A stretch of 57,155 nucleotides of DNA, filler included, from Nemertoderma westbladi (Eukaryota; Animalia; Xenacoelomorpha), in NCBI GenBank assembly GCA_032718475.1. It is 3 parts of 3 records of this genome, joined end to end, with 100 filler letters (N's around TTAATTAATTAA, not from the genome) between each part and the next. Parts side by side here need not be neighbours in the genome. Positions count along the whole stretch, not along the records: positions 1 to 29,148 come from JAUCBJ010004838.1; 2 more parts are not named here. One strand, 5' to 3'. Both the position numbers and the translations under genes were made by a program. The notes below the pieces were generated by a model. That model saw only the letters and a program-made list of their open reading frames with translations. It was not told the origin of the DNA and did no database searches. Positions 451 to 27,600 of the stretch are shown piece after piece (position 1 is the stretch's first letter; the number at the start of each line of letters is the position of its first letter).

Positions 451-453
451 TAG

Positions 454-668: not shown

Positions 669-3600
669 GTAACTAAAGCCAATTTAATGGCAGTATTTCA
701 ATACTTTTGTGTAAAAAATTGTTTCAGAAATATTACAATATTTAGACGACCTATCTTGTTTCCATTTCCAAAAAAAGTTGTAAGGTGACCAACCAACTTA
801 TTCATAGGGGAATGAAATTTATCCGTATAGGAGATGAAGTTAGTGACGTATGCCCTCCTGGAATGGTTCCAACACAGTCTAGGGACGGTAGCGAGGGGAT
901 ATATCTATGCGACGAGAGAAACAGATGCCCAACCCACAACCAGACGTGTTACAAACAACCAGACCAACCATTCTCAGTTTGCTGTTACGGTGTGCCTCGT
1001 GAGTTCACCTTTTCATATACACCTGGGATCTCAACGGTATTTAAATTCGGTTGTCTGTCTGTCTGTCTCTCCCCAGTACCTCGTTGCTGTACTACCCCCC
1101 CCCCCCTCCCCCTCCCCTAGTACCAGTGGCGTCACTATGGGGAGGGGGTGGCGGCCTGATTGTGGGGGGAGTCTCCTCGTGGGTCTCAGCATACGAAATT
1201 TTATTGATGATGAACATCGCCATAGGTTTAGGATGATACATATTTTAATAACACGAGTGAAATACACAATCTGAAATACAAAATAATGAAAATAATTTTG
1301 GATATTTTATATTTGATTACCCGCGGGCCGCCAGTACCTACGTGACGCCACTTCCCAATAGCTCCTTTTCGGTTGTTTGTTTACAGTTGCGACGCCCCCA
1401 TTGTGCTCTATCCCCCCAGTACCGCGTTCTTTGTTTACAGTTGCGACGCCCCCATTGTGCTCTATCTTCCCAGTACCCCGCGTTCTTTGTTTACAGTTGC
1501 TTCGCCCCCATTGTGCTCTATCCCCCCAGTACCGCGTTCTTTGTTTACAGTTGCGACGCCCCCATTGTGCTCTATCTCCCCAGTACCGCGTTCTTTGGTT
1601 ACAGTTGCGACGCCCCCATTGTGCTCTATCTTCCCAGTACCGCGTTCTTTGTTTACAGTTGCTTCGCCCCCATTGTGCTCTATCCCCCAGTACCGCGTTC
1701 TTTGTTTACAGTTGCGACGCCCCCATTGTGCTCTATCTTCCCAGTACCGCGTTCTTTGTTTACAGTTGCTTCGCCCCCATTGTGCTCTATCCCCCCAGTA
1801 CCGCGTTCTTTGTTTACAGTTGCGACGCCCCCATTGTGCTCTATCTCCCCAGTACCGCGTTCTTTGGTTACAGTTGCGACGCCCCCATTGTGCTCTATCT
1901 TCCCAGTACCGCGTTCTTTGTTTACAGTTGCTTCGCCCCCATTGTGCTCTATCCCCCCAGTACCGCGTTCTTTGTTTACAGTTGCGACGCCCCCATTGTG
2001 CTCTATCTTCCCAGTACCGCGTTCTTTGTTTACAGTTGCTTCGCCCCCATTGTGCTCTATCCCCCCAGTACCGCGTTCTTTGTTTACAGTTGCGACGCCC
2101 CCATTGTGCTCTATCCCCCCAGTACCGCGTTCTTTGTTTACAGTTGCGACGCCCCCATTGTGCTCTATCTCCCCAGTACCGCGTTCTTTGGTTACAGTTG
2201 CGACGCCCCCATTGTGCTATATCTCCCCAGTACCGCGTTCTTTGTTTACAGTTGCGACGCCCCCATTGTGCTCTATCCCCCAGTACCGCGTTCTTTGTTT
2301 ACAGTTGCGACGCCCCCATTGTGCTCTATCCCCCCAGTACCGCGTTCTTTGTTTACAGTTGCGACGCCCCCATTGTGCTCTATCTCCCCAGTACCGCGTT
2401 CTTTGTTTACAGTTGCGACGCCCCCATTGTGCTCTATCCCCCCAGTACCGCGTTCTTTGTTTACAGTTGCGACGCCCCCATTGTGCTCTATCCCCCCAGT
2501 ACCGCGTTCTTTGTTTACAGTTGCGACGCCCCCATTGTGCTCTATCTCCCCAGTACCGCGTTCTTTGGTTACAGTTGCGACGCCCCCATTGTGCTATATC
2601 TCCCCAGTACCGCGTTCTTTGTTTACAGTTGCGACGCCCCCATTGTGCTCTATCCCCCCAGTACCGCGTTCTTTGTTTACAGTTGCGACGCCCCCATTGT
2701 GCTCTATCCCCCCAGTACCGCGTTCTTTGTTTACAGTTGCGACGCCCCCATTGTGCTCTATCTCCCCAGTACCGCGTTCTTTGGTTACAGTTGCGACGCC
2801 CCCATTGTGCTATATCTCCCCAGTACCGCGTTCTTTGTTTACAGTTGCGACGCCCCCATTGTGCTATATCTCCCCAGTACCGCGTTCTTTGTTTACAGTT
2901 GCGACGCCCCCATTGTGCTCTATCCCCCAGTACCGCGTTCTTTGTTTACAGTTGCGACGCCCCCATTGTGCTCTATCCCCCCAGTACCGCGTTCTTTGTT
3001 TACAGTTGCGACGCCCCCAACTCCGTTGTGCTCTATTTCCCCATTCGGGTGCTGCCCTGACGGAGTAACTCCGGCCTCGAACGCCCTCTTTGACGGATGT
3101 CCACGCATCGTGCCGTGTAACTGCAGCGTTATTGGCTCCTACGATCTGACCACCTGCACACGAGATACCGGCCAGTGTGCGTGTCGCAGTGGTGTAGCTG
3201 GTGTTGCTTGCGATCGCTGTGAACTCGGATTCTGGAATTTTCGCGGAATAATTAATTCTACTGATGCCGGTATTGGATGCCTCCGTAAGTTAAGTTGACC
3301 TTTGATTATGTTTTACATACAGTTATAGGTCGCCTTTTATGAGTTTTGTTTTGTTTGTCGGACCTTTTGATTTAGTAATGTTCCCATTATACTTACGATT
3401 GTTACATTCCTATTGCTGAGGCACAATCAATTATCTGTTCATAAAATATCCCGGTATTATTCCCCAGTGATTTAAAATTTAAGAATGTTCCAACACTAGG
3501 TAGTTATAGACACAAGGACGACCACATCTCTCCAGAACAATCAACTCCAATTGATCTATCATCACAACCTATTTCTGGGCTAAATAATAATAATAATTGT

Positions 3601-6600
3601 AATAGTACTGTATGAAAAAATTATTATATCCAATCTATATATTTTATGTTAATCACCCTTCCATACAACACCAGCGTGCTGCTTTGACTTATGACGGATA
3701 CCTGTAGTATGTAAAAGCAGTATTATTAGTATTATTAAGATCATAATACAAGAACAATTTCGCAGATTTTTGAGAAATGTTCTTCTTTTAATTATATTCA
3801 CCTATTCGTAAAAGTGCCCTTTCCGGCAAAACAAATAAAGTTACATTAGCAGCTACATAGAACAGTTAGGATTCACATTATCCCAGTGCCAATGTGCTTT
3901 AAAAAGTACCCCACACATTTCGATGTGTGATCGAGTGGATTGGATCCAACAGTCGTACAACCCGAGTCCCTGTCGCTTCTCTTAAGTAATCTTCATATAG
4001 GGCCTACCAAATTAATTAACCAATTATGAAGATAGCCACATATAATGCAAACTCTGCACGAACGTTATCCAGTGAACACGTGATCTCGACTTTAGCCAAA
4101 TCCTGCGACATTATTCTCCTACAGGAGACTTTGTTACCTAAACAGGAACTCCACTAAAGCGGCTTCACCGGGATTTCTATGCTACTGGTTATTCTCCTGT
4201 TGATTTCCAAAACGGCATCCTAACCGGTCATCCTTTTGGGGATCTGGGAGTTTTGTGGAGAATGAGCCACGGTGCTGATTGTGTTAAAGTTATTGATGAT
4301 TCTGATCCACGGATCATGGTCCTAAAGGTTTCTCCCGCGAGTTCTGGGAAAGATTTTATACTTATTAATGTTTACTTACCATATGAAACGTGTGAGAATC
4401 TTGATGATTATATGAATTACTTAGCAAAGTTAACCACTATAGTTTAAGCTATCAATCACTATGATATATGCATAGTGGGAGATTTTAATGCGCACCCCTT
4501 GAGGCGATTCTTCGAGGAACTAACTCAATCGTGTTCGGATGTAGGCCTAACAATCCTGGATACATCCAGACTCCCAAGTGATACTTTCACTTTCGTCAGC
4601 TCTGCCAACAACTCAGTATCATGGTTAGATCACTGCGTATGTTCAGGGAGCATGTGCGATCGGGTGAACAACATTGTTGTTGAGTACTCAACTACTTTCG
4701 ACGATCATTTACCTATGATAATCGACGTTGATACCTCAAGTTCAATAAATCCTCCCAACTCGAATGAGCAGGAAATACCGGCCCGCTCAAAGCTGCCTCG
4801 CTGGAATAAGGCGACAGATTACCATCTCTCCGGGTACCAGTCTTATACGGGCCTCCTACTCGGGGACTGCGCTATCCCACACGATGCACTATCGTGTCGG
4901 GACCCTCAATGTGATAACGAGTCACACTGTGCCGATCTGGCAGAATTTTACTCCCGTATAAGGTCATCACTTCTCACAGCTGCAACAACCCATATCCCAT
5001 GTACAGAGAGTTCCTCCGACGTGCGAATTGACTCACACAATATCCCTGGTTGGAGTGACGAGGTCGAACAACTGCACCGAATTGCACGGGAGTCATTTCT
5101 CTGCTGGCGCTCACTTGGGAGCCCCCGGGCGGGAGGGTCCCCAGTTTCGCCTCATGAGTATATCTAGGGCGCAATTTAAACGGCGCCTACGATCGATCAA
5201 GCGTAACTCGGATAAGATAAAAGCGGACCGGATCGCGCAATCCCTATATGACAAGGACTGTTATAAGTTCTGGTCTAACGTGCGTCGCATTAACAATCAG
5301 CAGGTACCTCTTCCACCTACTGATAGCCATTCCACTTCCACATACATAGCTGATATGTAGGGAGTTCATTATGAAGGGGTTTTCAACATGTTCCCGGAGG
5401 AGGAGGACTCGCAAGAGGAGGAACCCAAGCCAACATACAAAGACGTGTTTGAACACATTGATTACTCCGCGGACATGATATTCTCCTCCGCCGAGTTAAC
5501 TGAAGCCCTAGCTAAGTTGGAGCGCAATAAAGCTGCCGGACCGGATAATCTAACTGCGGAGCATCTAAAATTCGCCAGTGGCCGTATCATTGTCTGTCTA
5601 TCCTTATTGCTCAGTGCGTGTAATGTACATGGGGTTCTCCCAAAGGATCTTATAACGTCAGTTATTTACCCTATAATAAAGGATAAATGTGGCGATACTA
5701 AGGATAAGTCCAACTACAGGCCCATTGCCGTTAGCAATATAATATGTAAACTTTTCGAGCACTTAATTTTAATGTGAATAATTAACTTTTTGTCAACAAC
5801 AGCCAATCAGTTTGGTTTCAAAAAAGGATGTGGTACTGAGCTCTGTGCTTACACCATTAAGGAAATTATTAACTATTATTTGAATCATGGTAATTATGTT
5901 TATGTATGTTTTCTGGACGCTTCCAAAGCATTCGATTGTGTACAGTACAGCATAGTATATTATTTACGAAATTAGTTAAGAGTAAAGTACCAGTTTTTAT
6001 TATTCGAATTTTATCCTATATGTACGCTCAGCAGTCAATGTTTGTCAGATGGGGGGGATATACCTCCCCCAGTTTTAATTGCACTAATGGTGTTAAACAG
6101 GGCAGCCCGATTTCACCTCTTTTATTTAACTTTTTTATTGATAACCTAAGTAAAGATTTAACTTCATCCGAGTTAGGTTGTACACTAAATGGCTCAGTTA
6201 TTAATCACTTGATATACGCTGATGATATTTGCCTCATAACCCGTAAACCCACATTCGTTACAGTCTCTTGTTAATATTTGTGTAAACTTTGCTAAGGATA
6301 ATAGCATCAACGCAAAAAAATCTAAATGTATGTTTTTTCGTAGTAAATTAAGGAAAGGTACAATTGGCCCGCCGTCCATTAACCTAGATTGTAAACAGTT
6401 GAGTAATGTTGAATGTTTTAAATACTTAGGGCATATTATTTCCAGGATTTTTCTGATGACTGTGATATATTGGCACAAACTAGACTTTTTTATGCTAGAG
6501 CCAATTCCTTGATTAGACGCTTCAGTAACTGTTCTGATAAAGTTAAGAAAGTACTATTTAACAGTTACTGTTCGTCAATCTATTGTTGTGCGTTGTGCTC

Positions 6601-9600
6601 TGACGTATATTTTTTACAGTCAAGTTTTAACAAACTTCACATTGCCATTAATAAATCTGTCCGGTCGTTATTTAATATTAAATTATACAATAAGGAGACC
6701 GACGAGATTAATAGTGCGAGTCAAATGTTGGTAAATCTTAATATCCGCTCTCTTAAAGAGATTTTTAGAATATCACTTTTTAGTTTGCATACTCATGTAA
6801 ATTTGTCATCTAATTCTGTTTTAATATGTGTACGTAACACTTGCCGACCATTGTCTACAATGTACGATACTTTTAAGCGGTGGTGTTACTCACGTGCAAC
6901 TTTTGCGCTCACGCGCTCAACTCACGCGCTTTTTATTTCACCTATGTTTCATTTTTTAGACCCATTTTACTTATTGTGCAGAAATTCCCTACCATTAGTG
7001 TTTTTATAGATATGGCACTGATATTTAATGTATATAATATGAATATTTGATGCTGAAATAAATAAAAAAAATAAAAAATAAAATTTCGTATCAGGCTTCA
7101 GATCATCCATAATTTCACGCTATAATATATTTGTAGCTTGCAGCATAATTTCACGCTATATTATATTTGTAGCTTGCAGCATAATTTCACGCTATATTAT
7201 ATTTGTAGCTTGCAGCATAATTTCACGCCATATTATATTTGTAGCTTGCAGCATAATTTCACGCCATATTATATTTGTAGCTTGCAGCATAATTTCACGC
7301 TACATTATATTTGTAGCTTGCAGCATAATTTCACGCTATATTATATTTGTAGCTTGCAGCATAATTTCACGCTATATTATATTTGTAGCTTGCAGCATAA
7401 TTTCACGCCATATTATATTTGTAGCTTGCAGCATAATTTCACGCCATATTATATTTGTAGCTTGCAGCATAATTTCACGCTACATTATATTTGTAGCTTG
7501 CAGCATAATTTCACGCTATATTATATTTGTAGCTTGCAGCATAATTTCACGCTATATTATATTTGTAGCTTGCAGCATAATTTCACGCTATATTATATTT
7601 GTAGCTTGCAGCATAATGTCACGCTATATTATATTTGTAGCTTGGAGCATAATTTCACGCTATATTATATTTGTAGCCTGCAGCATAATTTCACGCTATA
7701 TTATATTTGTAGCTTGCAGCATAATTTCACGCTATATTATATTTGTAGCTTGCAGCATAATTTCACGCTATATTATATTTGTAGCTTGAAGCATAATTTC
7801 ACGCTATATTATATTTGTAGCTTGCAGCATAATTTCACGCTATATTATATTTGTAACTTGCAGCATAATTTCACGCTATATTATATTTGTAGCTTGCAGC
7901 ATAATTTCACGCTATATTATATTTGTAGCTTGCAGCATAATTTTACGCTATAATATATTTGTAGCTTGCAGCATAATTTTACGCTATAATATATTTGTAG
8001 CTTGCAGCATAATTTCACGCTATATTATATTTGTAGCTTGGAGCATAATTTCACGCTATATTATATTTGTAGCCTGCAGCATAATTTCACGCTATATTAT
8101 ATTTGTAGCTTGCAGCATAATTTCACGCTATATTATATTTGTAGCTTGCAGCATAATTTCACGCTATATTATATTTGTAGCTTGCAGCATAATTTCACAC
8201 TATATTATATTTGTAGCTTGCAGCATAATTTCACGCTATATTATATTTGTAGCTTGCAGCATAATTTCACGCTATATTATATTTGTAGCTTGCAGCATAA
8301 TTTCACGCTATATTATATTTGTAGCTTGCAGCATAATTTCACGCTATATTATATTTGTAGCTTGCAGCATAATTTTACGCTATAATATATTTGTAGCTTG
8401 CAGCATAATTTAACGCTATAATATATTTGTAGCTTGCAGTTGTTCACTTTTGGGAGCGGCGAGACAAGATTGCGACCAAATGACAGGTGTTTGTGACTGT
8501 CTACCTGGAATAAGAGGCGACAAATGCTCGTTGTGTAACAACGGCAATATATTATCAGCAAGCGGCTGTAACCAAGGTGTGTACCGGTATAACTGTAGGC
8601 CTAATGTTTTTTCTTTCATATTATTCCAAATAAGTGTCTGTCAATTTAGTTAACATTTTTTGTACCGAAACGCTTCACTGCTACCGCTATATATATTACA
8701 TTACTTTGATTAAATCATTATTTAGCTATAATGCAGCCTATTCTATAAACGCTGTTAGCAATATTATCGTTTATCTTACAGTACTCGTCCGTTTTACAAA
8801 TATCGTGGCTTGAAGGATTATAAAAAACCCTGTAATATCCTAAAGTTATAGATTATTCGCCATGAACTACATAGTCATACTTTTGTTTATTAAGGAGAAA
8901 CCGTGGTTAATAATAATGATACTAAGAAGTTGTTAGATGATACTGGTGGTATGGCTACTGAAGCCATTAGTCAACCATACAGTCACACAATCATTAGTAA
9001 TGTCCAATCAACAACAATTGAGCTACCGCCTACAGGGGTAAGTCGGTGTTCAACAATTTAAAGATCAACTAACCAACCAACACCCATCTAATCAATAAAT
9101 CGTATAATATATAATTTTCGATATTATTTGTGCGGTACAGCTTATGTAAGTTGGTTGAAGAAGTGACATGGAAGTCCAGTGTAAGATACCGTCAACATCT
9201 TTTATGATTGGTCGGTCTCTTAAACCTATAGCGGATTTCCAAATTCGTATTCTATATAACTAGAAGTAAATCAAAATATGAAATATATTACCTGCTGTGT
9301 ATTTCAGGTAATTGATTTGACCACAACTTACTTTTTTTATGTTATTTTTAGGGTTGTAAAGTTGATAACAACATTTGCAAACATGGGGGAACTTGTTGGA
9401 TAAGTGAGAAGAGTAAATCACCATACTGTCTCTGTCCTCTGGGTAAAGGAGGACCAACTTGCGAGGATAGAGTAACATTTACTGTTCCCTCGTTCAGTAA
9501 TACAAGTTATTTATCGTTTCCCAAGGTTTATTAACGTTATATTATAATCGGCATGTCGCATTGCAGTTGTATTCGATTTATATAGATATATTAAATATCA

Positions 9601-12600
9601 TGACGGGGTAGCTCAGTTGGTTGAGCGCGGGGTTTACAAACCCCGCGTTTTGGATTCGAACCCCGCCAGGGTCCACTCAGTCTTTAATTCACTGTTGTCG
9701 ATAAAATGAGGACCAGTTTAATTTATTTCACGACCAAAAATTGCATCGCAATAAATGCATTCACAATAGAATCTAGTAAAAATTATTTAAAGTTAATTGT
9801 AGAGTTTATTATTAACTAAATTAGAATCTATAAAATTCTAAAGTAATACAAGTTGATTCCAAAATATCCTTAAATATAAAAGCGCGCGGAGAATCGTTGA
9901 GCCAAATATGAAAACAATGTAATCTAAAGTAATGTAATGTAGTGTAATGTAATTTAAATAAAGCAAAAACATTACAATAATGTATTTACGATTACCTGAC
10001 TAAATTAATAAACATTAAAACTATATATATACTGTAATGTATTACCTAATAATAGTTATATTATTGTGAAGAAACAAATGTGAAAAAGAGAAAACTAAAA
10101 GGTATGAGCAAATGCGAAATACATTTAATAAGTGGGTTGGATTGAATTCCCGTATATTATATCCTGGGCTGCATGATTTGTCCGGAATGCTGCCCAAAAA
10201 TTTGTCCAATTTCAGACCGACAACACCAAAACTGTTCTCCGTTAAAGTTGTTATTATAGCCGAAGCAAGTGATTTAAGGGGCAGGAGCACACAAAAACGG
10301 CCCACTGTTGTTTTAAAAGTAGTTATTATGTTGTGATCAGTAAGATTTGGAATTTTGTTATGCAATGTTTTCCAGATATTATTAGGTATCTTTTCTCGGC
10401 GCCTTTAAAACCAATTAAAATATTGAATAACTTTAAATTAACTTTATATAATTATTTCCCATTCCACATTGATAATTTTATTTTTACATTTTTTGTTAAT
10501 TATGAATCGTTGTCTAAAGTTATACCATTAACGCCTAGATTGGGGCGTATTTGAAACTCGATATTGAGATTCAGTTTCGAGCTGACAATCCAGATGGTGT
10601 ACTCCTCTATAACGGACAGTTCCGGCAAGGAACAGGTGACTACTTCTCCTTGTCAATAAATCAAGGATTCTTAGAATTTAGGTGAGTTAATCTAAAATGA
10701 TGTATAAACAAATTGCATAGTTTTTTTATTCAGTACAAAACCAATTAGGCTCTTGAACATATTAAATGGTTGTTAATCCATTCTTAACATACCCCCATCC
10801 TCCCCAAAAACCCACTTTCTCTTGGAACTAATTAGTATCAATTATTGCAATATTTCTTTCTTTAGATACGATCTTGGCTCTGGTGATATCGTTATGAAAT
10901 ATCCGCAACCAGTGGTTCTATCTAAGTGGCACCGGGTTACGGCTGGTAGACGCCACTCTGAGGGTTACCTAAGGATGGACGGGGGTGTCGTTATAGAAGC
11001 GTCCAGTCCTGGGAGACTCAGTGGACTGAATCTGGACGATGACTTGTATGTAGGAGGGATACCCTACATTACCAGAAACGTTAGTTGCATTGCCAACGGT
11101 ACACATACTGGTACTTCACGGGAACTGACACGGCACCCACTGGATCCACATGTTTAACATTAACAAAGACTGCCTGTCTAGTACGATTTAACTTAAAATA
11201 ATAATACTACTTGGTCGAGCGAGCTCGGACAGTGGAAGTGAGTTCCTTCCAGACTTCACCAATTCTCCATGGTTGTTCAATTTCGTTTCTGCAAAACCAG
11301 GATCCCTTTTAAATTGGTCTATATAAATATGTCATAGCTGGTCGTCCAGGCAACGCCCACCATATGTTGGTTGCCAGTAAAGTAGATCTGGTATGACCTA
11401 ACTGTAGTTTTTACTTCTTCAACCAACAGTGGCAACAGAATTGTAATCCGCTTTCAAGGGGAGTGGTTGATAGAGGTAGTATACCATGAACTCGGTGTTT
11501 GACATGTTTGTCTCCAGCTGATGGTTAGTTAGGGCTGCTTAGAAATAGATACAATCTGCAAATCAGACTCTCCCGTCCCATGAAGACAAAGTTATTTCGA
11601 GCCACAGTGGAAAGTGTACGTCTATATACCATGTCCTGGAAAATAAAGTCTACATTCTTCACCCCCTCCCCCAAATTGTTCTACGTCGTACAAATCTTAA
11701 CGAGATTGCATGAAATTTGAAACAGAGATTGTTTCACCTCCCTCCTCGAAGTTTCACCTTCCTAGTGTCTACAAATGGGTTTGTCCCAAGCTAGATCCGT
11801 GGGACAAGGCCACCAAGGACATTCCCTCCACACGTCTCTCAACTCCTCGACAAAGACCCGGCGGCTCGAGAAAGGATGGGATATCACAGCTATAGCTAAT
11901 GCCAGTTCTTTTATTACATAATCATAGTTCCGAGGTATTCTGCCACCACTACGCCGACTGGAAAGGCCGTTGGGACCATTTGCCCATGCTGTAGAGCAGC
12001 ACCTGCTGCTGGAATTGAGGCGCTTGTAGCTAAAAAATGCTGTTTCAAATTTCATGCAAAGTTACCTTAATAATGACACTATATTCCAGAACATGGTGTA
12101 AGGGGGGTGGTGCGTGGGTGTGTGGAGTGAGAACTTCACATTGACAAAATCACTTGAACAACGAATTGATGGTTGTCACACAAGACTACTTAACTTAATT
12201 ATTAGAGATATAATTAATTAATTATAGATATATTCTAATGTTGGTACATGGAACGGATTCTCAGGGTGTATCCGCCTTCTTACAATGAACGGCGTTGGTT
12301 TTGACCTCTCCAGCGGTGGCGCAAACGTTCTGTACGGCGGGCATGTGGGAGAATGTGGTAAGAGACCGTGCGACACAAATCCTTGTCTCAACGGCGCAAA
12401 GTGCATTGATATTGACACGGAAACATACAGGTGGGTCAATAATGAAAAATGCAAGACAAAATCGGTCGCATGATACTCAGAAAAAAATATAACAGTTTAT
12501 ACCCTAAATATGATATAATTAACTAATATAATACAGTTATTCTTTTAAGAACATGTGCCGCCTCCGTCACTAATGTGTTCTTGCCTTATATTTGAGTAAT

Positions 12601-15600: not shown

Positions 15601-18600
15601 GGGATTCCTAGAAGTTATTGGGGAGGGGAGAAGGGATTCCTAGAAGTTATTGGGGAGGGGATCATGGATTCCTAGAAAATATTGGGGAGGGGAGCAGGGA
15701 TTCCTAGAAGTTAAAAGTATGGGGAGCAGGGATTCCTAGAAGTTATTGGGGAGGGGAGAAGGGATTCCTAGAAGTTATTGGGGAGGGGATCAGGGATTCC
15801 TAGAAGTTATTGGGGAGGGTAGCAGGGATTCCTATAAGTTATTGGGGAGGGGAGAAGGGATTTCTAGAAGTTATTCGGGAGGGGATCAGGGATTTATAGA
15901 AGATATTGGGGAGGGGAGCAGAAATTCCTAGAAGTTAAGATGATGGGGAGCAGGGATTCCTAGCAGTTATTAGGGAGAGGAGAAGGGATTCCTAGAAGTT
16001 ATTGGGGAGGGGATCAGGGATTCCTAGAAGTTATTGGGGAGGGGAGCAGGGATTCCTAGAAGTAAAGAGGATGGGGAGCAGGTATTCCTAGCAGTTATTG
16101 GGGAGGGGAGAAGGGATTACTAGAAGTTATTTGGGAGGAGATCAGGGATTCCTAGAAGATATTGGGGAGGGGAGCAGGGATTCCTAGACGTTATTGAGGA
16201 GGGGAGAAGGGATTCCTAGACGTTATTGGGGAGGGGATCAGGGATTCCTAGAAGATATTGGGGAGAGGAGCAGGGATTCCTAGAATTTATTGGGGAGGGG
16301 AGCAGGGATTCCTAGAAGTAATTGGGGAGGGGATCAAGGATTCTTAGATGTTATTGGGGAGGGGAGCAGGGATTCCTAGCAGTTATTGGGGAGGGGAGCA
16401 GGGATTCCTAGAAGTTATTGGGGAGAGGATCGGGGATTCCTAGAAGATATTGGGGAGGGGAGCAGGGATTCCTAGAAGTTATTGGGGAGGGGAGCAGGGA
16501 TTCCTAGACGTTATTGGGGAGGGGAGAAGGGATTCCTAGACGTTATTGGGGAGGGGATCAGGGATTCCTAGAAGATATTGGGGAGAGGAGCAGGGATTCC
16601 TAGAATTTATTGGGGAAGGGAGCAGGGATTCCTAGAAGTTATTGGGGAGGGAGGGGATCAGGGATTCCTAGAAGATATTGGGGAGGGGATCAGGGATTCC
16701 TAGAAGTTTAGAGGATGGGGAGCAGGGATTCCTAGCAGTTATTGGGGAGGGGAGCAGGGATTCCTAGCAGTTATTGAGGAGGGGGGAAGGGATTCCTAGA
16801 AGTTATTGGGGAGGGGAGCAGGGATTCATAGAAGTTATTGGGGAGGGGAGCAGGGATTCCTAGACGTTATTGGGGGAGGGGATCAGGGATTCCTAGAAGA
16901 TATTGGGGAGGGGAGCAGAGATTCCTAGTAGTTAAGAGGATGGGGAGCAGGGATTCCTAGAAGTTATTGGGGAGGGGATCAGGGATTCCTAGAAGTTATT
17001 GGGGAGGAGAGCAGGGATTCCTAGAAGTTATTGGGGAGGGGAGAAGGGATTGCTAGAAGTTATTGGGGAGGGGATCAGGGATCCCTAAAAGATATTGGGG
17101 AGGGGATCAGGGATTCCTAGACGTTAAGAGGATCGGGACCAGGGATTCCTAGCAGTTATTGGGGAGGGGAGAAGGGATTCCTAGAAGTTATTGGGGAGGG
17201 GATCATGGATTCCTAGAAAATATTGGGGAGGGGAGCAGGGATTCCTAGAAGTTAAAAGTATGGGGAGCAGGGATTCCTAGAAGTTATTGGGGAGGGGAGA
17301 AGGGATTCCTAGAAGTTATTGGGGAGGGGATCAGGGATTCCTAGAAGTTATTGGGGAGGGTAGCAGGGATTCCTATAAGTTATTGGGGAGGGGAGAAGGG
17401 ATTCCTAGAAGTTATTCGGGAGGGGATCAGGGATTTCTAGAAGATATTGGGGAGGGGAGCAGAGATTCCTAGAAGTTAAGATGATGGGGAGCAGTGATTC
17501 CTAGCAGTTATTAGGGAGAGGAGAAGGGATTCCTAGAAGTTATTGGGGAGGGGATCAGGGATTCCTATAAGTTATTGGGGAGGGGAGAAGGGATTACTAT
17601 AAGTTATTGGGGAGGAGATCAGGGATTCCTAGAAGATATTGGGGAGGGGAGCAGGGATTCCTAGAAGTAATGGGGGGGGGGATCAAGGATTCCTAGAAGT
17701 TATTGGGGAGGGGAGCAGGGATTCCTAGCAGTTATTGGGGAGGGGAGCAGGGATTCCTAGAAGTTATTGGGGAGAGGATCGGGGATTCCTAGAAGATATT
17801 GGGGAGGGGAGCAGGGATTCCTAGAAGTTATTGAGGAGGGGAGAAGGGATTCCTAGAAGTTATTGGGGAGGGGATCAGGGATCCCTAAAAGATATTGGCG
17901 AGGGGATCAGGGATTCCTATAAGTTATTGGGGAGGGGATCAAGGATTCCTATAAGTTATTGGGAAGGGGAGCAGGGATTCCTAGAAGTTATTGGGGAGGA
18001 GAGCAGGGATTCCTAGAAGATATTGGGGAGGGGAGCAGGGATTCCTATAAGTTATTGAGGAGGGGAGAAGGGATTCCTAGAAGTTATTGGGGAGGGGAGC
18101 AGGGATTCCTAGAAGTTAAGAGGATGGGGAGCAGGGATTCCTAGAAGATATTGGGGAGGGGAGCAGGGATTTCTAGCAGTTATTGGGGAGGGGAGCAGGG
18201 ATTCCTAGAAGTTATTGGGGAGGGGATCAGGGATTCCTAGAAGATATTGGGGAGGGGAGCAGGGATTCCTATAAGTTATTGAGGAGGGGAGAAGGGATTC
18301 CTAGAAGTTATTGGGGAGGGGAGCAGGGATTACTATAAGTTATTGGGGAGGAGATCAGGGATTCCTAGAAGATATTGGGGAGGGGAGCAGGGATTCCTAG
18401 AAGTAATGGGGGGGGGATCAAGGATTCCTAGAAGTTATTGGGGAGGGGAGCAGGGATTCCTAGCAGTTATTGGGGAGGGGAGCAGGGATTCCTAGAAGTT
18501 ATTGGGGAGAGGATCGGGGATTCCTAGAAGATATTGGGGAGGGGAGCAGGGATTCCTAGAAGTAATGGGGGGGGGGGATCAAGGATTCCTAGAAGTTATT

Positions 18601-21600
18601 GGGGAGGGGAGCAGGGATTCCTAGCAGTTATTGGGGAGGGGAGCAGGGATTCCTAGAAGTTATTGGGGAGAGGATCGGGGATTCCTAGAAGATATTGGGG
18701 AGGGGAGCAGGGATTCCTAGAAGTAATGGGGGGGGGATCAAGGATTCCTAGAAGTTATTGGGGAGGGGAGCAGGGATTCCTAGCAGTTATTGGGGAGGGG
18801 AGAAGGGATTACTATAAGTTATTGGGGAGGAGATCAGGGATTCCTAGAAGATATTGGGGAGGGGAGCAGGGATTCCTAGAAGTAATGGGGGGGGGGATCA
18901 AGGATTCCTAGAAGTTATTGGGGAGGGGAGCAGGGATTCCTAGCAGTTATTGGGGAGGGGAGCAGGGATTCCTAGAAGTTATTGGGGAGAGGATCGGGGA
19001 TTCCTAGAAGATATTGGGGAGGGGAGCAGGGATTCCTAGAAGTTATTGAGGAGGGGAGAAGGGATTCCTAGAAGTTATTGGGGAGGGGATCAGGGATCCC
19101 TAAAAGATATTGGCGAGGGGAGCAGGGATTCCTATAAGTTATTGGGGAGGGGATCAAGGATTCCTATAAGTTATTGGGAAGGGGAGCAGGGATTCCTAGA
19201 AGTTATTGGGGAGGAGAGCAGGGATTCCTAGAAGATATTGGGGAGGGGAGCAGGGATTCCTATAAGTTATTGAGGAGGGGAGAAGGGATTCCTATAAGTT
19301 ATTGGGGAGGGGATCAAGGATTCCTATAAGTTATTGGGAAGGGGAGCAGGGATTCCTAGAAGTTATTGGGGAGGAGAGCAGGGATTCCTAGAAGATATTG
19401 GGGAGGGGAGCAGGGATTCCTATAAGTTATTGAGGAGGGGAGAAGGGATTCCTAGAAGTTATTGAGGAGGGGAGAAGGGATTCCTATAAGTTATTGGGGA
19501 GGGGATCAAGGATTCCTATAAGTTATTGGGAAGGGGAGCAGGGATTCCTAGAAGTTATTGGGGAGGAGAGCAGGGATTCCTAGAAGATATTGGGGAGGGG
19601 AGCAGGGATTCCTATAAGTTATTGAGGAGGGGAGAAGGGATTCCTAGAAGTTATTGGGGAGGGGAGCAGGGATTCCTAGAAGTTAAGAGGATGGGGAGCA
19701 GGGATTCCTAGAAGATATTGGGGAGGGGAGCAGGGATTTCTAGCAGTTATTGGGGAGGGGAGCAGGGATTCCTAGAAGTTATTGGGGAGGGGATCAGGGA
19801 TTCCTAGAAGATATTGGGGAGGGGAGCAGGGATTCCTATAAGTTATTGAGGAGGGGAGAAGGGATTCCTAGAAGTTATTGGGGAGGGGAGCAGGGATTAC
19901 TATAAGTTATTGGGGAGGAGATCAGGGATTCCTAGAAGATATTGGGGAGGGGAGCAGGGATTCCTAGAAGTAATGGGGGGGGGATCAAGGATTCCTAGAA
20001 GTTATTGGGGAGGGGAGCAGGGATTCCTAGCAGTTATTGGGGAGGGGAGCAGGGATTCCTAGAAGTTATTGGGGAGAGGATCGGGGATTCCTAGAAGATA
20101 TTGGGGAGGGGAGCAGGGATTCCTAGAAGTAATGGGGGGGGGGGGGATCAAGGATTCCTAGAAGTTATTGGGGAGGGGAGCAGGGATTCCTAGCAGTTAT
20201 TGGGGAGGGGAGCAGGGATTCCTAGAAGTTATTGGGGAGAGGATCGGGGATTCCTAGAAGATATTGGGGAGGGGAGCAGGGATTCCTAGAAGTAATGGGG
20301 GGGGGATCAAGGATTCCTAGAAGTTATTGGGGAGGGGAGCAGGGATTCCTAGCAGTTATTGGGGAGGGGAGAAGGGATTACTATAAGTTATTGGGGAGGA
20401 GATCAGGGATTCCTAGAAGATATTGGGGAGGGGAGCAGGGATTCCTAGAAGTAATGGGGGGGGGGATCAAGGATTCCTAGAAGTTATTGGGGAGGGGAGC
20501 AGGGATTCCTAGCAGTTATTGGGGAGGGGAGCAGGGATTCCTAGAAGTTATTGGGGAGAGGATCGGGGATTCCTAGAAGATATTGGGGAGGGGAGCAGGG
20601 ATTCCTAGAAGTTATTGAGGAGGGGAGAAGGGATTCCTAGAAGTTATTGGGGAGGGGATCAGGGATCCCTAAAAGATATTGGCGAGGGGAGCAGGGATTC
20701 CTATAAGTTATTGGGGAGGGGATCAAGGATTCCTATAAGTTATTGGGAAGGGGAGCAGGGATTCCTAGAAGTTATTGGGGAGGAGAGCAGGGATTCCTAG
20801 AAGATATTGGGGAGGGGAGCAGGGATTCCTATAAGTTATTGAGGAGGGGAGAAGGGATTCCTATAAGTTATTGGGGAGGGGATCAAGGATTCCTATAAGT
20901 TATTGGGAAGGGGAGCAGGGATTCCTAGAAGTTATTGGGGAGGAGAGCAGGGATTCCTAGAAGATATTGGGGAGGGGAGCAGGGATTCCTATAAGTTATT
21001 GAGGAGGGGAGAAGGGATTCCTAGAAGTTATTGAGGAGGGGAGAAGGGATTCCTATAAGTTATTGGGGAGGGGATCAAGGATTCCTATAAGTTATTGGGA
21101 AGGGGAGCAGGGATTCCTAGAAGTTATTGGGGAGGAGAGCAGGGATTCCTAGAAGATATTGGGGAGGGGAGCAGGGATTCCTATAAGTTATTGAGGAGGG
21201 GAGAAGGGATTCCTAGAAGTTATTGGGGAGGGGAGCAGGGATTCCTAGAAGTTAAGAGGATGGGGAGCAGGGATTCCTAGAAGATATTGGGGAGGGGAGC
21301 AGGGATTTCTAGCAGTTATTGGGGAGGGGAGCAGGGATTCCTAGAAGTTATTGGGGAGGGGATCAGGGATTCCTAGAAGATATTGGGGAGGGGAGCAGGG
21401 ATTCCTATAAGTTATTGAGGAGGGGAGAAGGGATTCCTAGAAGTTATTGGGGAGGGGAGCAGGGATTCCTAGAAGTTAAGAGGATGGGGAGCAGGGATTC
21501 CTAGCAGTTATTGGGGAGGGGAGAAGGGATTCATAGAGGTTAAGAGGATGGGGAGCAGGGATTCCTAGAAGTTAAGAGGATGGGGAGCAGGGATTCCTAG

Positions 21601-24600
21601 CAGTTATTGGGGAGGGGAGAAGGGATTCCTAGAAGATATTGGGGAGGGGAGCAGGGATTCCTAGAAGTTATTGGGGAGGGGAGCAGGGATTCCTAGAAGT
21701 TAAGAGGATGGGGAGCAGGGAATCCTAGCAGTTATTGGGGAGGGGAGCAGGGATTCCTAGCAGTTATTGAGAAGGGGAGCAGGGTTTCCTAGAAGTTAAG
21801 AGGATGGGGAGCAGGGATTCCTAGCAGTTATTGGGAAGGGGAGCAGGGATTCCTAGCAGTTATTGGGGAGGGGAGCAGGGTTTCCTAGAAGTTATTGGGG
21901 AGGGGAGCAGGGATTCCTAGAAGATATTGGGGAGGGGAGCAGGGATTCCTAGAAGTAAAGAGGATGGGGAGCAGGGATTCCTAGCAGTTATTGGGGAGGG
22001 GAGCAGGGATTCCTAGCAGTTATTGAGGAGGGGGGAAGGAATTCCTAGACGTTATTGGGGAGGTTGAGCAGGGATTCTTAGAAGTTATTGGGGAGGGGAG
22101 CAGGGATTCCTAGACTTTATTGGGGGAGGGGATCAGGGATTCCTAGAAGATATTGGGGAGGGGAGCAGAGATTCCTAGAAGTTAAGAGGATGGGGAGCAG
22201 GGATTCCTAAAAGTTATTGGGGAGGGGAGAAGGGATTCCTAGAGGTTAATGGGGAGGGGATCAGGGATTCCTAGAAGATATTGGGGAGGGGAGCAGGGAT
22301 TCCTAGAGGTTAAGAGGGTGGGGAGCACGGATTCCTAGCAGTTATTGGGGAAGGGAGAAGGGATTCCTAGAAGTTATTGGGGAGGGGATCAGGGATTCCT
22401 AGAAGTTATTGGGGAGGAGAGAAGGGATTCCTAGAAGTTATTGAGGAGGGGGGAAGGGATTCCTAGAAGTTATTGGGGAGGTGAGCAGGGATTCCTATAA
22501 GTTATTGGGGAGGGGATCATGGATTTCTAGAAGTTATTGGGAAGGGGAGCAGGGATTCCTAGCAGTTATTGGGGAGGGGAGCAGGGATTCCTAGAAGTTA
22601 TTGAGGAGGGGGGAAGGGATTCCTAGAAGTTATTGGGGAGGTGAGCAGGGATTCCTATAAGTTATTGGGGAGGGGATCAAGGATTTCTAGAAGTTATTGG
22701 GAAGGGGAGCAGGGATTCCTAGAAGATATTGGGGAGGGGAGCAGGGATTCCTAGAAGTTATTGGGGAGGGGATCGGGGATTCCTAGAAGATATTGGGGAG
22801 GGGAGCAGGGATTCCTAGAAGTTATTGAGGAGGGGAGAAGGGATTCCTAGAAGTTATTGGGGAGGGGGGGAGCAGGGATGCAGTTATTGGGGAGGGGAGC
22901 AGGGATTTCTAGCAGTTATTGGGGAGGGGAGCAGGGATTCCTAGCAGTTATTGGGGAGGGGATCAGGGTTTCCTAGAAGTTATTGGGGAGGTGAGCAGGG
23001 ATTCCTATAAGTTATTGGGGAGGGGATCAAGGATTTCTAGAAGTTATTGGGAAGGGGAGCAGGGATTCCTAGAAGATATTGGGGAGGGGAGCAGGGATTC
23101 CTAGAAGTTATTGGGGAGGGGATCGGGGATTCCTAGAAGATATTGGGGAGGGGAGCAGGGATTCCTAGAAGTTATTGGGGAGGGGAGCAGGGATTCCTAG
23201 AATTTAAGAGGATGGGGAGCAGGGATTACTAGCAGTTATTGGGGAGGGGAGCAGGGATTCCAAGCAGTTATTGAGGAGGGGAGCAGAGTTTCCTAGAAGT
23301 TAAGAGGATGGGGAGCAGGGATTCGTAGCAATTATTGGGGAGGGGAGCAGGGATTCCTCGCAGTTATTGGGGAGGGGAGCAGGGTTTCCTAGAAGTTATT
23401 GGGGAGGGGAGCAGGGATTCCTAGAAGTTATTGGGGAGGGGAGCAGGGATTCCTAGAAGTTAAAGAGGATGGGGAGCAGGGATTCCTAGCAGTTATTGGG
23501 GAGGGGAGCAGGGATTTCTAGCAGTTATTGGGGAGGGGAGCAGGGATTCCTAGCAGTTATTGGGGAGGGGATCAGGGTTTCCTAGAAGTTATTGGGGAGG
23601 GGAGCAGCGATTCCTAGAAGTTATTGGGGAGGGGAGCAGGGATTCCTTGCAGTTATTGGGGAGGGGAGCAGGGTTTCCTAGAGTTATTGGGGAGGGAAGC
23701 AGGGATTCATCTTGGTTAATGGAGTCGTTGTACCTGGAGTGTCCCCGGTAAGTTACAGGGATTCCTAGAAGTTATTGGTGAGTGAAGATGTGATTCCTAG
23801 TAGTTGCAGTGTTGCTGTAGCATATGTACCGGTATCTATGTAATATGTACCGTAATTGTCTGCATCATTTCTTTAATTTATTTAGTTCAACTTTGTAACA
23901 TTTTGTAAATTTGCATCACGTTTTACGTTTTAGCTAGCACGGATGCAAGCTTTACTAATGGTAAGTTAGATAATCGTTTATTTTATTGGAACTTTGGCAG
24001 CTTATTTCGGACGGAGTTCTACTCAAATGCAAATGGAATGTCAAAGTAGTGTATTATTTTGCTTGGAGATAAACTGCTACTGTAACTTGCGCATTTTCTA
24101 TAATATAAAATTTTATAAATACACAATAAGAATAACATGTCTTTATTGCAACCCCCCATTGCAAGGCCTACACAACACATTGAGCAACATGTTGCGCAAA
24201 GTACAAAAATGGGTATACCCGTACCATGTTTACCGTACGGGTATATTACACACGTTGGCTGTCATGTTATCGAGTTTTACTGGTAAATATGTATCGTTTT
24301 ACAATAAAATTCCAAAAATAATTAATTAATTAAATCATTTTAATTATTTATTGTGTATTTAGGGGAAATTGAATCAGTTGAATACAAAGAGCGACCTATA
24401 TATCGGAGGAATAGGAAATATTGCCGCGGTTGATAGACGAACTCGAATAACGGACAACTTCTACGGAGCAATTCAAAGAGTAAGTGCCAAAGCTGAGATT
24501 TAATATCATATGTTTATTATGCAATAACTATGAAGACGACCTATTACTACTTACTGCTAAGTATTTTACTGTAATCATCCTATCTTTATTGGAACTACCT

Positions 24601-27600
24601 CACTCACGCGCTACTTACAACTTTACACTACAACCTGATACTTTACACAACGATGTAAATAATGTATGAATGAATATACGTCCGTTTCCTATTTTTTTTC
24701 ATTGTAGATCACTTTTACTTTTCAGTTTGTGGTTAACAATGTAACCTACATTGGCGACAACGTGACATATGAACGGATAGTAAACAAAACATCCCTGGCG
24801 GCGGTGGGACTGTCTCCCTACAAACAACACCCGTGCACCAGGGATGGGTACAGTCATTGTAGCAATGGGGGTGCGTGTTTACCCAGAATGGAGGGGTGGT
24901 TGTGCCGTTGCCATGGTGACTACAAGGGTGATAGATGCCAGCAGTCTATGGTGCAAAGAGAGCAGGGGGGAGGATCGATTAGAGTGGACGGATTGACGCC
25001 ATTAATGTATAAAAATGGTGTAACATCTGTGTAAGTTACTCTATAAGTACTATTGTTGGAGTTAGCACATGCTTGTTCTAGAGTTCTTACAGTTTATCAT
25101 GGTGTTACCGAGAATAAATATCCTTATACACACTCACTAAAACCGTACCATTCAACCACAATTATTAGTCTCTCATTAGTTCCACACCATATACAGTAAT
25201 AACTAGTTCCACGACAGCAGTAAATACTAGGAGTTTGTATACACAGAAATTTATCTTGGAAAACTCATGACACCCACCTACTTTCTTAATAAAATATCAA
25301 AATCTACAGGTATATTTTATAAACTCAGATATATTTCGCTTCCATGTATTCATTTTACGGTAACTGTTGTACTAGACCTATACTCACTAGTTCACGAGTT
25401 CACCTATTTACATCAATATTGTTTCATCTCTGGGGTGGGACTGGGACAAACTCTACTACTACTATTTATACAAAAAATTATCCGACCTTTAAATAATAAT
25501 AATAAAATCAGAGTAAATCCTCAGTTATTCTATATTTTTCAATCTAATTATTAGGATCAATTCGGCATTAGTGACCGAGTGGTTGATTAAGTTACGAACT
25601 ACATCAACTTCCGGCCTGATATTCTACTCGGGGCCGCTAGAGGGCGCTGTTGGGGACTACCTTGCTGTGTATTTAGCTGGCAGAGGAACTCTTGTACTGC
25701 AATACAATCTCGGTAGCGGATTTATCAAAGTTGTTTCCAAAGTGATATTGGCTGATGGCAAATGGCACACCGTGCATATTCACAGGTAAACAGACCGTTT
25801 ATAACTTCCCTAGTGTTGTCTAAATGAACAAAATCCTTCTTCTTCCATTGTCATTTATTTGGATCATCTGTATAATTGTATAATCTGTATATATCATTAT
25901 GTTTACCATTTAGTTGGGTTTCTTTACATTATTCACAAAATACACTTTACACCTCATGATTAGTTCATACCTCATTCCCAGGCTAGTTAAAATACAGTTT
26001 ACGTAGACTGGAAAAAAATTACGGTTTGTTTAGTACCACTATGAGTAAAGAAACAAATTTGCATCAGGTAGTAATAGGCCCTGCGACTATGCGATTAAAT
26101 TGAAGTTCTTGGTTTTTCAAAAAGTTAATGAAGGCATTTTCCACTGAAACCAATAAAATGAAGAAAATTGCCAAGAATAGTTGTGGCGCTACTCGTGAAA
26201 TTTTGTTTTAACCTAGAACATATTGCTAGAATTTTGTTTTATTTGTAACCTAGAACATATTGTTAGAGTTTTGTTTTATATGTAACCTAGAACATATTGC
26301 TAGAATTTTGTTTTATATGTAACCTAGAACATACTGCTAGAATTTTGTTTTATATGTAACCTAGAACATATTGCTAGAATTGTGTTTTATTTGTAACCTA
26401 GAACATATTGTTAGAGATTTGTTTTATATGTAACCTAGAACATATTGCTAGAATTTTGTTTTATATGTAACCTAGAACATATTGCTAGAATTTTGTTTTA
26501 TATGTAACCTAGAACATATTGCTAGAATTTTGTTTTATATGTAACCTAGAACATATTGCTAGAATTGTGTTTTATTTGTAACCTAGAACATATTGTTAGA
26601 GTTTTGTTTTATATGTAACCTAGAACATATTGCTAGAATTGTGTTTTATTTGTAACCTAGAACATATTGTTAGAGTTTTGTTTTATATGTAACCTAGAAC
26701 ATATTGCTAGAATTTTGTTTTATATGTAACCTAGAACATATTGCTAGAATTTTGTTTTATATGTAACCTAGAACATATTGTTAGAGTTTTGTTTTATATG
26801 TAACCTAGAACATATTGCTAGAATTGTGTTTTATTTGTAACCTAGAACATATTGTTAGAGTTTTGTTTTATATGTAACCTAGAACATATTGCTAGAATTT
26901 TGTTTTATATGTAACCTAGAACATATTGCTAGAATTTTGTTTTATATGTAACCTAGAACATATTGTTAGAGTTTTGTTTTATATGTAACCTAGAACATAT
27001 TGCTAGAATTTTGTTTTATATGTAACCTAGAACATACTGCTAGAAATTTGTTTTATATGTAACCTAGAACATATTGCTAGAATTTTGTTTTATATGTAAC
27101 CTAGAACATATTGCTAGAATTTTGTTTTATATGTAACCTAGAACATACTGCTAGAATTTTGTTTTATATGTAACCTAGAACATATTGTTAGAGTTTTGTT
27201 TTATATGTAACCTAGAACATATTGCTAGAATTTTGTTTTATATGTAACCTAGAACATACTGCTAGAATTTTGTTTTATATGTAACCTAGAACATATTGCT
27301 AGAATTTTGTTTTATATGTAACCTAGAACATATTGTTAGAGTTTTGTTTTATATGTAACCTAGAACATATTGCTAGAATTTTGTTTTATATGTAACCTAG
27401 AACATATTGTTAGAGTTTTGTTTTATATGTAACCTAGAACATATTGTTAGAGTTTTGTTTTATATGTAACCTAGAACATATTGCTAGAATTTTGTTTTAT
27501 ATGTAACCTAGAACATACTGCTAGAGTTTTGTTTTATATGTAACCTAGAACATATTGTTAGAGTTTTGTTTTCTTTCTAACCTAGAACATAGCGTGACCC

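What the first reader, a model, noticed from the sequence alone, without database searches (positions are those of the whole stretch)
1373..27590. Introns repeatedly expanded by satellites made from the gene's own splice junctions
Seen: four agrin introns carry unrelated tandem arrays whose unit overlaps an exon-intron boundary. These are the 54-bp acceptor array, the 36-bp acceptor array, the 3-copy acceptor repeat at 12614-12707, and the 32-bp array between duplicated donors. A fifth array (37 bp) is acceptor-like, and a sixth acceptor sits on (TTTCA)n. The arrays total about 14 kb of a span of about 27.5 kb. In each junction-derived case only the exon-proximal site (last acceptor, first donor) gives the normal protein, and the reading frame is intact. 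Inference: a recurrent mutational process targets splice junctions or survives preferentially there, and strict exon definition lets the spliceosome ignore dozens of near-identical decoy sites. Individual VNTRs overlapping splice sites are known; this density in one gene looks unusual.
Basis: partly seen in the sequence, partly recalled or inferred. Interest (0 to 1): 0.8.

Follow-up and report, generated by a model that had tools for sequence, protein, structure and literature searches.

The report
Splice-junction "mirage" repeats in agrin gene
In an animal's agrin gene, short pieces spanning an intron end and the start of the next exon are copied head-to-tail up to 37 times into the intron; this repeat type is already known from lancelets and human genes, and the spare splice signals are likely ignored, so it is a clear example of a known oddity.

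Summary
Partly confirmed. The window holds 16 exons of an agrin gene; five arrays fill 14.3 of 27.5 kb. Two arrays are true acceptor copies: 54 bp x31 and 36 bp x37. The '3-copy' repeat has only one spare acceptor. The 32-bp array (9.9 kb) lies between two copies of a donor, but its unit holds no donor. The 37-bp array is not junction-derived. Exons 2-16 read through 970 codons; three exon-1 frameshifts are assembly errors by an independent contig. Two spliced contigs use the exon-adjacent site at exons 10 and 12. No RNA was seen at the two big acceptor arrays. These are 'mirage' minisatellites (amphioxus; human F7, CBS, LMNB2). The scan found the same pattern before in many other pieces of this genome and in other invertebrates (unchecked notes). 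Junction placement exceeds a uniform null (4 of 6; P 0.0006-0.004), but the test is post hoc and only 0.05-0.12 for the large arrays alone. Open point: the 54-bp copies have no stop codons and the penultimate one is in frame, so its use would add 18 residues.

The parts
420..451 (+). (TTTCA)x6.4 microsatellite forming the pyrimidine tract of the exon-1 acceptor; not a junction copy
454..668 (+). Agrin exon 1 of the window (follistatin/Kazal); three single-base assembly errors
   Evidence: Pfam Kazal_1; X2 contig differences at 507, 542, 570; open frame after applying them
831..998 (+). Exon 2 (Lustrin-like cysteine-rich repeat)
   Evidence: PF14625 E 7e-4, below the curated cut-off
1372..3019 (+). 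54-bp acceptor mirage array: 30 spare acceptors plus the true one; no stop codon in any + frame
   Evidence: joins seen in X1 and X2
3006..3284 (+). Exon 3 (Pro-rich linker, cysteine motif, laminin EGF 1)
   Evidence: PF00053 E 1e-11; 51% identity to platypus agrin
7108..8439 (+). 36-bp acceptor mirage array: 36 upstream copies (35 with AG); the last copy alone has TTAAC at -23..-19, which is also an in-frame stop for upstream use
   Evidence: X1 contig 8400-11234 with 0 differences
8433..8576 (+). Exon 4 (laminin EGF 2)
   Evidence: PF00053 E 3e-9
8895..11079 (+). Exons 5-8 (8895-9037, 9352-9525, 10539-10681, 10866-11079): short Ser/Thr stretch, EGF, laminin G1; no junction repeats
12190..12233 (+). 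20-22-base duplication of the exon-9 acceptor (one spare, out of frame); marginal, AT-rich
   Evidence: score 8 against control 95th percentile 5 and 99th 11
12228..12430 (+). Exon 9
12611..12707 (+). 32-34-base acceptor repeat at exon 10: one intact spare acceptor (12654, out of frame) and one degenerate copy
12686..13220 (+). Exons 10 (12686-12843) and 11 (12950-13220); a spliced contig enters at the last acceptor and skips the 106-base intron
   Evidence: X4 record 22
13698..13806 (+). Exon 12; its first donor is the one used in a spliced-looking contig
   Evidence: X5 record 30 matches 13729-13807, then runs on in 120 unlike letters
13817..23708 (+). 32-bp G-rich array, about 309 copies, derived from exon-12 and intron-start sequence; unit has no donor; 1,332-base perfect internal duplicate at lag 1,569
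   Evidence: X1 unit join
23684..23762 (+). Second copy of the exon-12 end plus donor (GT at 23748)
   Evidence: not tested with reads
24363..25785 (+). Exons 13-15 (24363-24479, 24726-25030, 25555-25785): end of laminin G2, EGF, laminin G3
26209..27591 (+). 37-bp intronic array, 37.4 copies; not junction-derived
27667..27922 (+). Last coding exon with stop codon

Best explanation
These are 'mirage' minisatellites in an intact, transcribed agrin gene: short pieces spanning a splice junction sit in tandem in the neighbouring intron, and they are likely neutral products of local duplication and repeat expansion whose spare splice signals are likely skipped. Step 1 (inferred): a 20-80-base local duplication, probably by slippage or break repair, crosses an exon edge; short shared sequence flanks the exon-10 and exon-12 cases (shown). 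Step 2 (follows from the geometry): the extra copy falls on the intron side and the exon stays whole. Step 3 (inferred from block patterns that are shown): unequal exchange expands the unit to 30-300 copies, as it also does for repeats unrelated to junctions in this window. Step 4 (shown at 2 small sites, inferred at the 2 big arrays): the spliceosome uses the site next to the true exon. Step 5 (predicted): most errors shift the frame or meet a stop and would be removed by nonsense-mediated decay. A modest bias of duplications toward exon edges is likely but not established.
For: Units align to this gene's own junctions. Exons 2-16 are open for 970 codons and align to platypus agrin (33% over 734 columns, E 4e-117). 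X4 record 22 and X5 record 30 show exon-adjacent splicing. All 36 upstream 36-bp copies meet a stop, and the single spares at exons 9 and 10 shift the frame. Variant units recur in blocks, and the 32-bp array has a 1,332-base perfect internal duplicate. Non-junction arrays are just as dense elsewhere in the window (0.49 per kb). Published mirages behave the same way: amphioxus globins and Adh3 do not disturb splicing (PMC3087553 passages; PMC3902484 passages), and in F7 IVS7 only the first site is used (PMC1557585).
Against: No RNA contig covered the exon 2/3 or exon 3/4 junctions (X4 and X5 laid 0 records on 300-1480; depth 0 at 8400-8581), so skipping of the 30 and 35 spare acceptors is untested. 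The true 54-bp acceptor has the same intron-side 30 bases as many spares and no consensus branch pentamer, whereas the first copy keeps the native intron end. The 54-bp copies are stop-free and 5 of 30 are in frame. In human 6-16 and CBS the two nearest spare donors are used (PMC1557585 Introduction). RNA support is one low-depth contig per site (depth 4.9 and 3.6), and the unmatched letters were not displayed.
Confidence: 0.75

Rival explanations
1. Junction-targeted mutation: in this lineage DNA just outside exons is a hotspot for breaks or duplications (for example linker DNA beside exon nucleosomes, or transcription-linked R-loops), so arrays arise at junctions well above chance. This can hold together with neutrality of the arrays.
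For: 4 of 6 intronic repeats with period of 20 or more overlap a junction against 0.51-0.85 expected (P 6e-4 to 4e-3); 5 of 6 if the 79-base donor duplication is counted (P 5e-5 to 6e-4). An independent local scan finds 3 of 31 junctions against 4 of 400 masked intron positions (binomial P 0.004). Three duplicated acceptors begin within about 25 bases of a mobile-element end. Unchecked notes list many other genes of this genome with such arrays.
Against: The window was picked for this pattern, so the P values are post hoc. For the four large arrays alone the strict count is 2 of 4 (P 0.05-0.12). The 20-base case is marginal. The control masks the non-junction arrays, which favours enrichment. 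An unchecked note on an annelid genome found no excess over chance in a wider sample.
Confidence: 0.4
2. Pure chance in short introns: in a repeat-prone genome with a median collapsed intron of 388 bases, a 30-80-base duplication touches a junction often, and this gene is a selected extreme.
For: Given the intron in which each lies, the chance of junction overlap is about 0.2 for three of the six repeats. Array density matches the intergenic part of the window.
Against: For the 36-bp array the conditional chance is only 0.016. Intron interiors hold 1 array against 4.7 expected (P 0.05).
Confidence: 0.3
3. Functional alternative acceptors: the 54-bp array is read in part, adding 18-residue proline-rich units to the linker before the laminin-EGF pair, so repeat number or site choice tunes agrin length.
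For: Unit length is a multiple of three; no stop in any + frame; the penultimate acceptor (2952) is in frame and stop-free; the three 53-base units are C-run shortenings in a region with proven single-base assembly errors; the junction aligns to a proline-rich linker of platypus agrin.
Against: No RNA evidence. The 36-bp array is also a multiple of three yet is closed by a stop. Variants among 54-bp units mostly change the amino acid (read). No protein with this exon at near-identity was found in three searches, so no spliced product of the species could be examined.
Confidence: 0.1
4. Assembly artefact or dead gene: the arrays are inflated by the assembler, or the gene is a relaxed pseudogene.
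For: The first 1.3 kb carries nine single-base indel differences from X2 contigs. The 1,332-base perfect duplicate could be an assembly error. Contig depth over array units in X2 is far below copy number times single-copy depth, although the tool says depth is no copy number.
Against: Tandem joins are present in short-read contigs. Exon-1 frameshifts vanish in X2. 970 codons are open, and spliced contigs occur in runs of two samples.
Confidence: 0.05

Closest known systems
Amphioxus 'mirage' minisatellites (Adh3, globins BflGb6 and BflGb9, troponin C, PGBD5). Seen: passages of PMC3087553 and PMC3902484; the original Adh3 paper (PMC117041) was not held.
   Same: Tandem copies of an intron-exon boundary, acceptor or donor side, carrying splice signals; unit 10-160 bp; normal splicing reported; more than one such repeat in a gene (PGBD5); end copies differ from the interior.
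   Different: Copy numbers here are higher (31 and 37, against 2-7 in the globin and PGBD5 cases read). One donor duplication has a 9.9-kb array of a donor-free sub-piece between its two copies. The host is another animal; its lineage was not determined.
Human minisatellites whose first unit spans an exon-intron boundary: F7 IVS7 (37 bp, 5-9 copies), 6-16/IFI6, CBS IVS13, LMNB2, PDGF. Seen: abstract, Introduction and Discussion of PMC1557585.
   Same: Identical spare splice sites repeated in the intron; the exon-adjacent one is preferred.
   Different: Those are donor arrays, explained by 5'-to-3' scanning. The two big arrays here are acceptors, where first-AG scanning from an upstream branch point would not by itself pick the last copy (inference). 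In 6-16 and CBS the two nearest spares are used.
[quoted passage not shown] Seen: passages of PMC2891723; Zhuo 2007 and Gao and Lynch 2009 as reference-list titles only.
   Same: Local duplication across AG/GT sequence turns exon-derived DNA into intron.
   Different: No new intron is made here; existing introns are lengthened.
Agrin (platypus, UniRef F7CAL5_ORNAN)
   Same: Kazal, laminin EGF x2, EGF, LG, EGF, EGF, LG, EGF, LG order; 33-42% identity.
   Different: Only about 48 residues lie between laminin EGF 2 and the first EGF, where platypus has about 430 (Pfam SEA is listed for the platypus protein); a Lustrin-like exon precedes the linker.

Membership tests
Mirage minisatellite | Tandem repeat whose unit spans an exon-intron boundary of the host gene | tested here: met
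   Met for the 54-bp, 36-bp and exon-10 repeats
Mirage minisatellite (32-bp and 37-bp arrays) | Tandem repeat whose unit spans an exon-intron boundary of the host gene | tested here: not met
   The 32-bp unit has no donor and only the bracketing 79-base duplication spans the junction; the 37-bp unit does not match the exon-16 junction. These two are not filed as mirages.
Mirage minisatellite | Extra copies carry AG or GT splice signals | tested here: met
   30 of 30 spare 54-bp copies, 35 of 36 spare 36-bp copies, 1 spare at exon 10
Mirage minisatellite | Host gene stays intact | tested here: met
   970 open codons; exon 1 open after X2 differences
Mirage minisatellite | mRNA is spliced at the authentic, exon-adjacent site | tested here: inconclusive
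   One contig each supports it at exon 10 and exon 12; no RNA cover at the 54- and 36-bp arrays
Mirage minisatellite | Length polymorphism or somatic instability | not testable with these tools
   Only short-read contigs were available; they cannot size the arrays
Agrin | Kazal / laminin-EGF x2 / EGF and three laminin-G domains in agrin order, with homology to a named agrin | tested here: met
   the N-terminal part lies outside the window
Recursive-splicing ladder | Acceptor followed at once by a regenerated donor (AG|GT) | tested here: not met
   Acceptor copies continue AG|TT and AG|CT

The most novel reading that the evidence does not exclude
This lineage has a duplication process aimed at exon edges, and some of its products are read: the stop-free, in-frame 54-bp acceptor copies act as alternative 3' splice sites that add 18-residue proline-rich units to agrin's linker, while the 36-bp array is locked by one base in its last copy that both makes the best branch-point match and puts a stop in front of every upstream acceptor.
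Probability: 0.1. Interest if true: 0.7.

Novelty: new member of a known kind. Interest (0 to 1): 0.3.

Why it matters
As it stands, this is a dense but modest-sized example of a named, little-studied repeat class. Its use is as test material. Most published mechanistic work that I read concerns donor arrays (F7); here 30-35 near-identical acceptors precede a true exon, in one case with no intron-side difference for 30 bases and in the other with a single distinguishing base. Deep RNA data would show how an animal spliceosome picks the last 3' splice site. If a genome-wide count confirmed the excess at exon edges, it would point to a mutational bias tied to gene architecture, which bears on intron growth and intron gain by tandem duplication. 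Eight literature searches (listings only, open-licence library) showed no genome-wide count of this kind, but subscription papers are not covered.

Tried and rejected
Whole-genome enrichment test: no genome is held for this window. Run search: no RNA holder listed; X4 and X5 are labelled DNA by guess and are treated as RNA only because their contigs skip an intron or leave an exon at its donor. Laying X4 and X5 on 300-1480 gave 0 records, which is no evidence either way. Contig depth as a measure of copy number was rejected on the tool's own caveat. Searches for the species' own spliced agrin across the 54-bp array found none: 2 platypus hits among 48 candidates, no candidate at near length, and best 150 of 1,452 hits all at 36-53% identity. 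The 37-bp unit as a decayed exon-16 acceptor: rejected. The 32-bp unit as a donor stack: rejected. Recursive splicing: rejected, no AG|GT. Pseudogene: rejected. A local-duplication scan of all 31 junctions found nothing beyond the acceptors of exons 3, 4, 10 and, weakly, 9; it cannot see the exon-12 donor copy 9.9 kb away. ARAGORN found no tRNA. The organism was not identified. Supplements of the papers were not read; PMC3087553's mirage alignments (Additional files 4-7) could bear on the comparison of end copies.
Full report
Gene. I read 1-16000, 22500-57155 directly and the rest by script. Sixteen + strand exons from 454 to 27922 join through GT-AG introns (exon 15 corrected to 25555). Exons 2-16 give 970 codons and one terminal stop. 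Pfam on 14 exon translations gives Kazal, a weak Lustrin repeat, two laminin EGF, EGF and three laminin G domains. Exon 3 hits platypus agrin at 51%, and the joined model aligns at 33% over 734 columns, E 4e-117. This is the C-terminal half of an agrin. Exon 1 is frameshifted as assembled, but a contig of run X2 differs by single bases at 507, 542 and 570, and with these the exon is 216 bases and open. Six more single-base indels lie in the same 1.2 kb, so this end of the assembly is poorly polished.

Arrays. TRF gives 54 bp x30.5 (1372-3019), 36 bp x37 (7108-8439), 32 bp x2.2 (12633-12707), 32 bp x308.6 (13817-23708), 37 bp x37.4 (26209-27591), and a 20-22-base pair of copies at 12190-12233. 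The 54-bp unit is 15 intron bases plus the start of exon 3 with a 6-base deletion and a 7-base filler; all 30 spare copies keep the AG. The 36-bp unit is 29 intron bases plus 7 exon bases; 35 of 36 spare copies keep the AG. The exon-10 repeat has one intact spare acceptor and one degenerate copy. The large 32-bp array is different: a 79-base piece (exon-12 end plus donor) occurs at 13743-13821 and again at 23684-23762, and what expanded between them is a donor-free sub-piece that resembles both exon 12 (13752-13781) and the intron start; the array has 0 GTAAG and 5 AGGTGAGC sites. The 37-bp array ends 75 bases before exon 16 and scores below shuffles against that junction. The (TTTCA)n run is an ordinary microsatellite in a pyrimidine tract.

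Are they real? Six runs were listed, three holding half or more of the words, from two studies; one may be the source of the assembly. Short-read contigs show the 54-bp unit-to-unit join (X2) and last-unit-to-exon join (X1), the 36-bp unit-to-unit join and a 32-bp join (X1). Lengths are not confirmed.

Which site is used? X4 record 22 (216 letters, depth 4.9) matches 12684-12841 and 12948-12996, skipping exactly the 106-base intron; its first 9 letters do not match the genomic bases before 12684, which fits a join from exon 9 to the last acceptor. X5 record 30 (depth 3.6) matches 13729-13807 without a difference and then runs on in 120 letters unlike the intron, which fits the first donor. In both cases the unmatched letters were not displayed, so the partner exon is inferred. 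Neither run covered exons 2-4 where I looked, so the two big acceptor arrays are untested.

What would mis-splicing give? At the 36-bp array all 36 upstream copies are in frame but all meet a stop. The stop comes from a base found only in the last copy, and the same base makes the only TTAAC branch-like pentamer among 37 copies, with the A at -20; X1 confirms this stretch with 0 differences. This may simply be the ancestral base kept in an end copy, as end copies of BflGb6 escape homogenisation (PMC3087553). At exons 9 and 10 the spare shifts the frame. At the 54-bp array there is no stop in any + frame. As assembled, 5 of 30 spares are in frame, including the penultimate one (+18 residues). 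The three 53-base units are C-run shortenings and may be errors, so more may be in frame. The true acceptor has no consensus branch pentamer and a second AG 22 bases upstream, while the first copy keeps the native intron end. The junction aligns to a proline-rich linker in platypus agrin. This is the most open point of the locus.

More than chance? With arrays collapsed, the 15 introns total 10,064 bases (5,807 without approximate mobile elements; median 388). Under uniform seeding with wholly exonic seeds removed, 4 of 6 repeats overlap a junction against 0.51-0.85 expected (P 6e-4 to 4e-3). Counting the 79-base donor duplication it is 5 of 6 (P 5e-5 to 6e-4). For the four large arrays it is 2 of 4 strictly (P 0.05-0.12) or 3 of 4 (P 0.007-0.03). 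A separate local scan finds 3 of 31 junctions above a score reached by 4 of 400 intron positions, with arrays masked, which favours enrichment (P 0.004). All of this is post hoc on a window picked for the pattern. Array density in the introns (about 0.6 per kb) is like that in the gene-poor half of the window (13 loci, 0.49 per kb), so it is the placement, not the number, that stands out. Survival alone cannot explain an excess over intron interiors; a mutational bias or selection of the window must.

Mechanism. Shown: junction-derived units, short shared sequence flanking the exon-10 and exon-12 duplications, recurring blocks of variant units and a 1,332-base perfect duplicate in the 32-bp array, an intact transcribed gene. 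Inferred: origin by slippage or break repair, growth by unequal exchange, choice of the exon-adjacent site by exon definition or scanning, and decay of mis-spliced RNA. The 32-bp unit is G-run rich on the sense strand (174 loose G4-like matches); from my own knowledge such minisatellites are unstable, which may explain why it grew most. Three duplicated acceptors start within about 25 bases of a mobile-element end: a 228-base element with 11-base inverted ends, a LINE with an RT hit, and a high-copy 1-kb element flanked by a direct repeat. A shared fragile zone just upstream of acceptors would fit, but n is small and native introns are short.

Known kin. Earlier notes of this scan gave the lead to 'mirages', which I checked. 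[quoted passage not shown] PMC3902484 (passages) adds troponin C and two such repeats in PGBD5. PMC1557585 (abstract, Introduction, Discussion) covers human F7, 6-16, CBS, LMNB2 and PDGF; only the first site is used in F7, LMNB2 and PDGF, and the two nearest spares as well in 6-16 and CBS. The 54-bp, 36-bp and exon-10 repeats meet the structural definition; the 32-bp and 37-bp arrays do not. In the same genome 73 of 79 notes fit my search words, several describing arrays of 200-2,100 copies; these are unchecked AI notes on selected windows and are not counted as evidence. Notes from other invertebrates disagree on whether placement exceeds chance.

Verdict. A real, partly overstated observation: a new and medium-sized member of a known kind, likely neutral. 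Interest 0.3. The novel reading (targeted duplication plus in-frame use of the 54-bp copies) is not excluded, at about 0.1.

Noticed in passing
1125-1352; about 3990-7082; about 11197-12190: Three mobile-element insertions end within about 25 bases of the start of an acceptor duplication: a 228-base element with 11-base perfect inverted ends, a broken LINE (RT hit at 5894-6271, A-rich tail), and a very high-copy 1-kb element with a direct repeat on both sides.
   Followed up: partly
8410-8414: One base unique to the last 36-bp copy gives both the only TTAAC branch-like motif and an in-frame stop for all upstream acceptors.
   Followed up: partly
23934-23960: Possible 27-base in-frame microexon (AG before, GTAAGT after) in the intron that aligns to platypus ESP/VPH, which I recall as the vertebrate agrin y splice site. 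No RNA test; may be chance.
   Followed up: partly
25030/25555 junction: This intron aligns to platypus VTS/SEK, which I recall as the agrin z splice site.
   Followed up: no
831-998; 8895-9037: This agrin has a Lustrin-like exon before the linker and only about 48 residues between laminin EGF 2 and the first EGF, where platypus has about 430.
   Followed up: partly
within 13817-23708: A 1,332-base perfect duplicate at lag 1,569: a very recent block duplication or an assembly error.
   Followed up: no
300-1300: Nine single-base indel differences against X2 contigs; the start of the window is poorly polished.
   Followed up: yes
366-398 and 37998-38553: An X1 contig matching 366-398 continues into the reverse complement of the 63-bp array unit, so that unit has dispersed relatives.
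   Followed up: no
36137-37000: Intronless ORF with three ubiquitin-like domains (PF00240, 3 stretches).
   Followed up: partly
50578-52847: ORF with DUF4806 holding an in-frame 51-bp x11 coding repeat, followed right after its stop by a 30-bp x32 G-rich array.
   Followed up: no
31897-35252; 53809-56903: A broken LINE (endonuclease, RT) and, on the minus strand, an LTR-retrotransposon-like gag-pol region (protease, RT, RNase H, integrase zinc finger).
   Followed up: partly
44190-45596: 349-residue ORF with no Pfam hit, preceded by a 118-residue ORF in the same frame across one stop.
   Followed up: no
about 30560-31990 and 46850-48280: The two stretches read as inverted copies of each other by eye, flanking the gene-poor region; possibly long terminal inverted repeats of a large element.
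   Followed up: no
29150-29249; 42164-42263: Two 100-base scaffold gaps, each with a TTAA-repeat spacer in the middle of the N run.
   Followed up: no
about 9590-9760: High-copy tRNA-like short element in intron 6 (depth); ARAGORN calls no tRNA.
   Followed up: no
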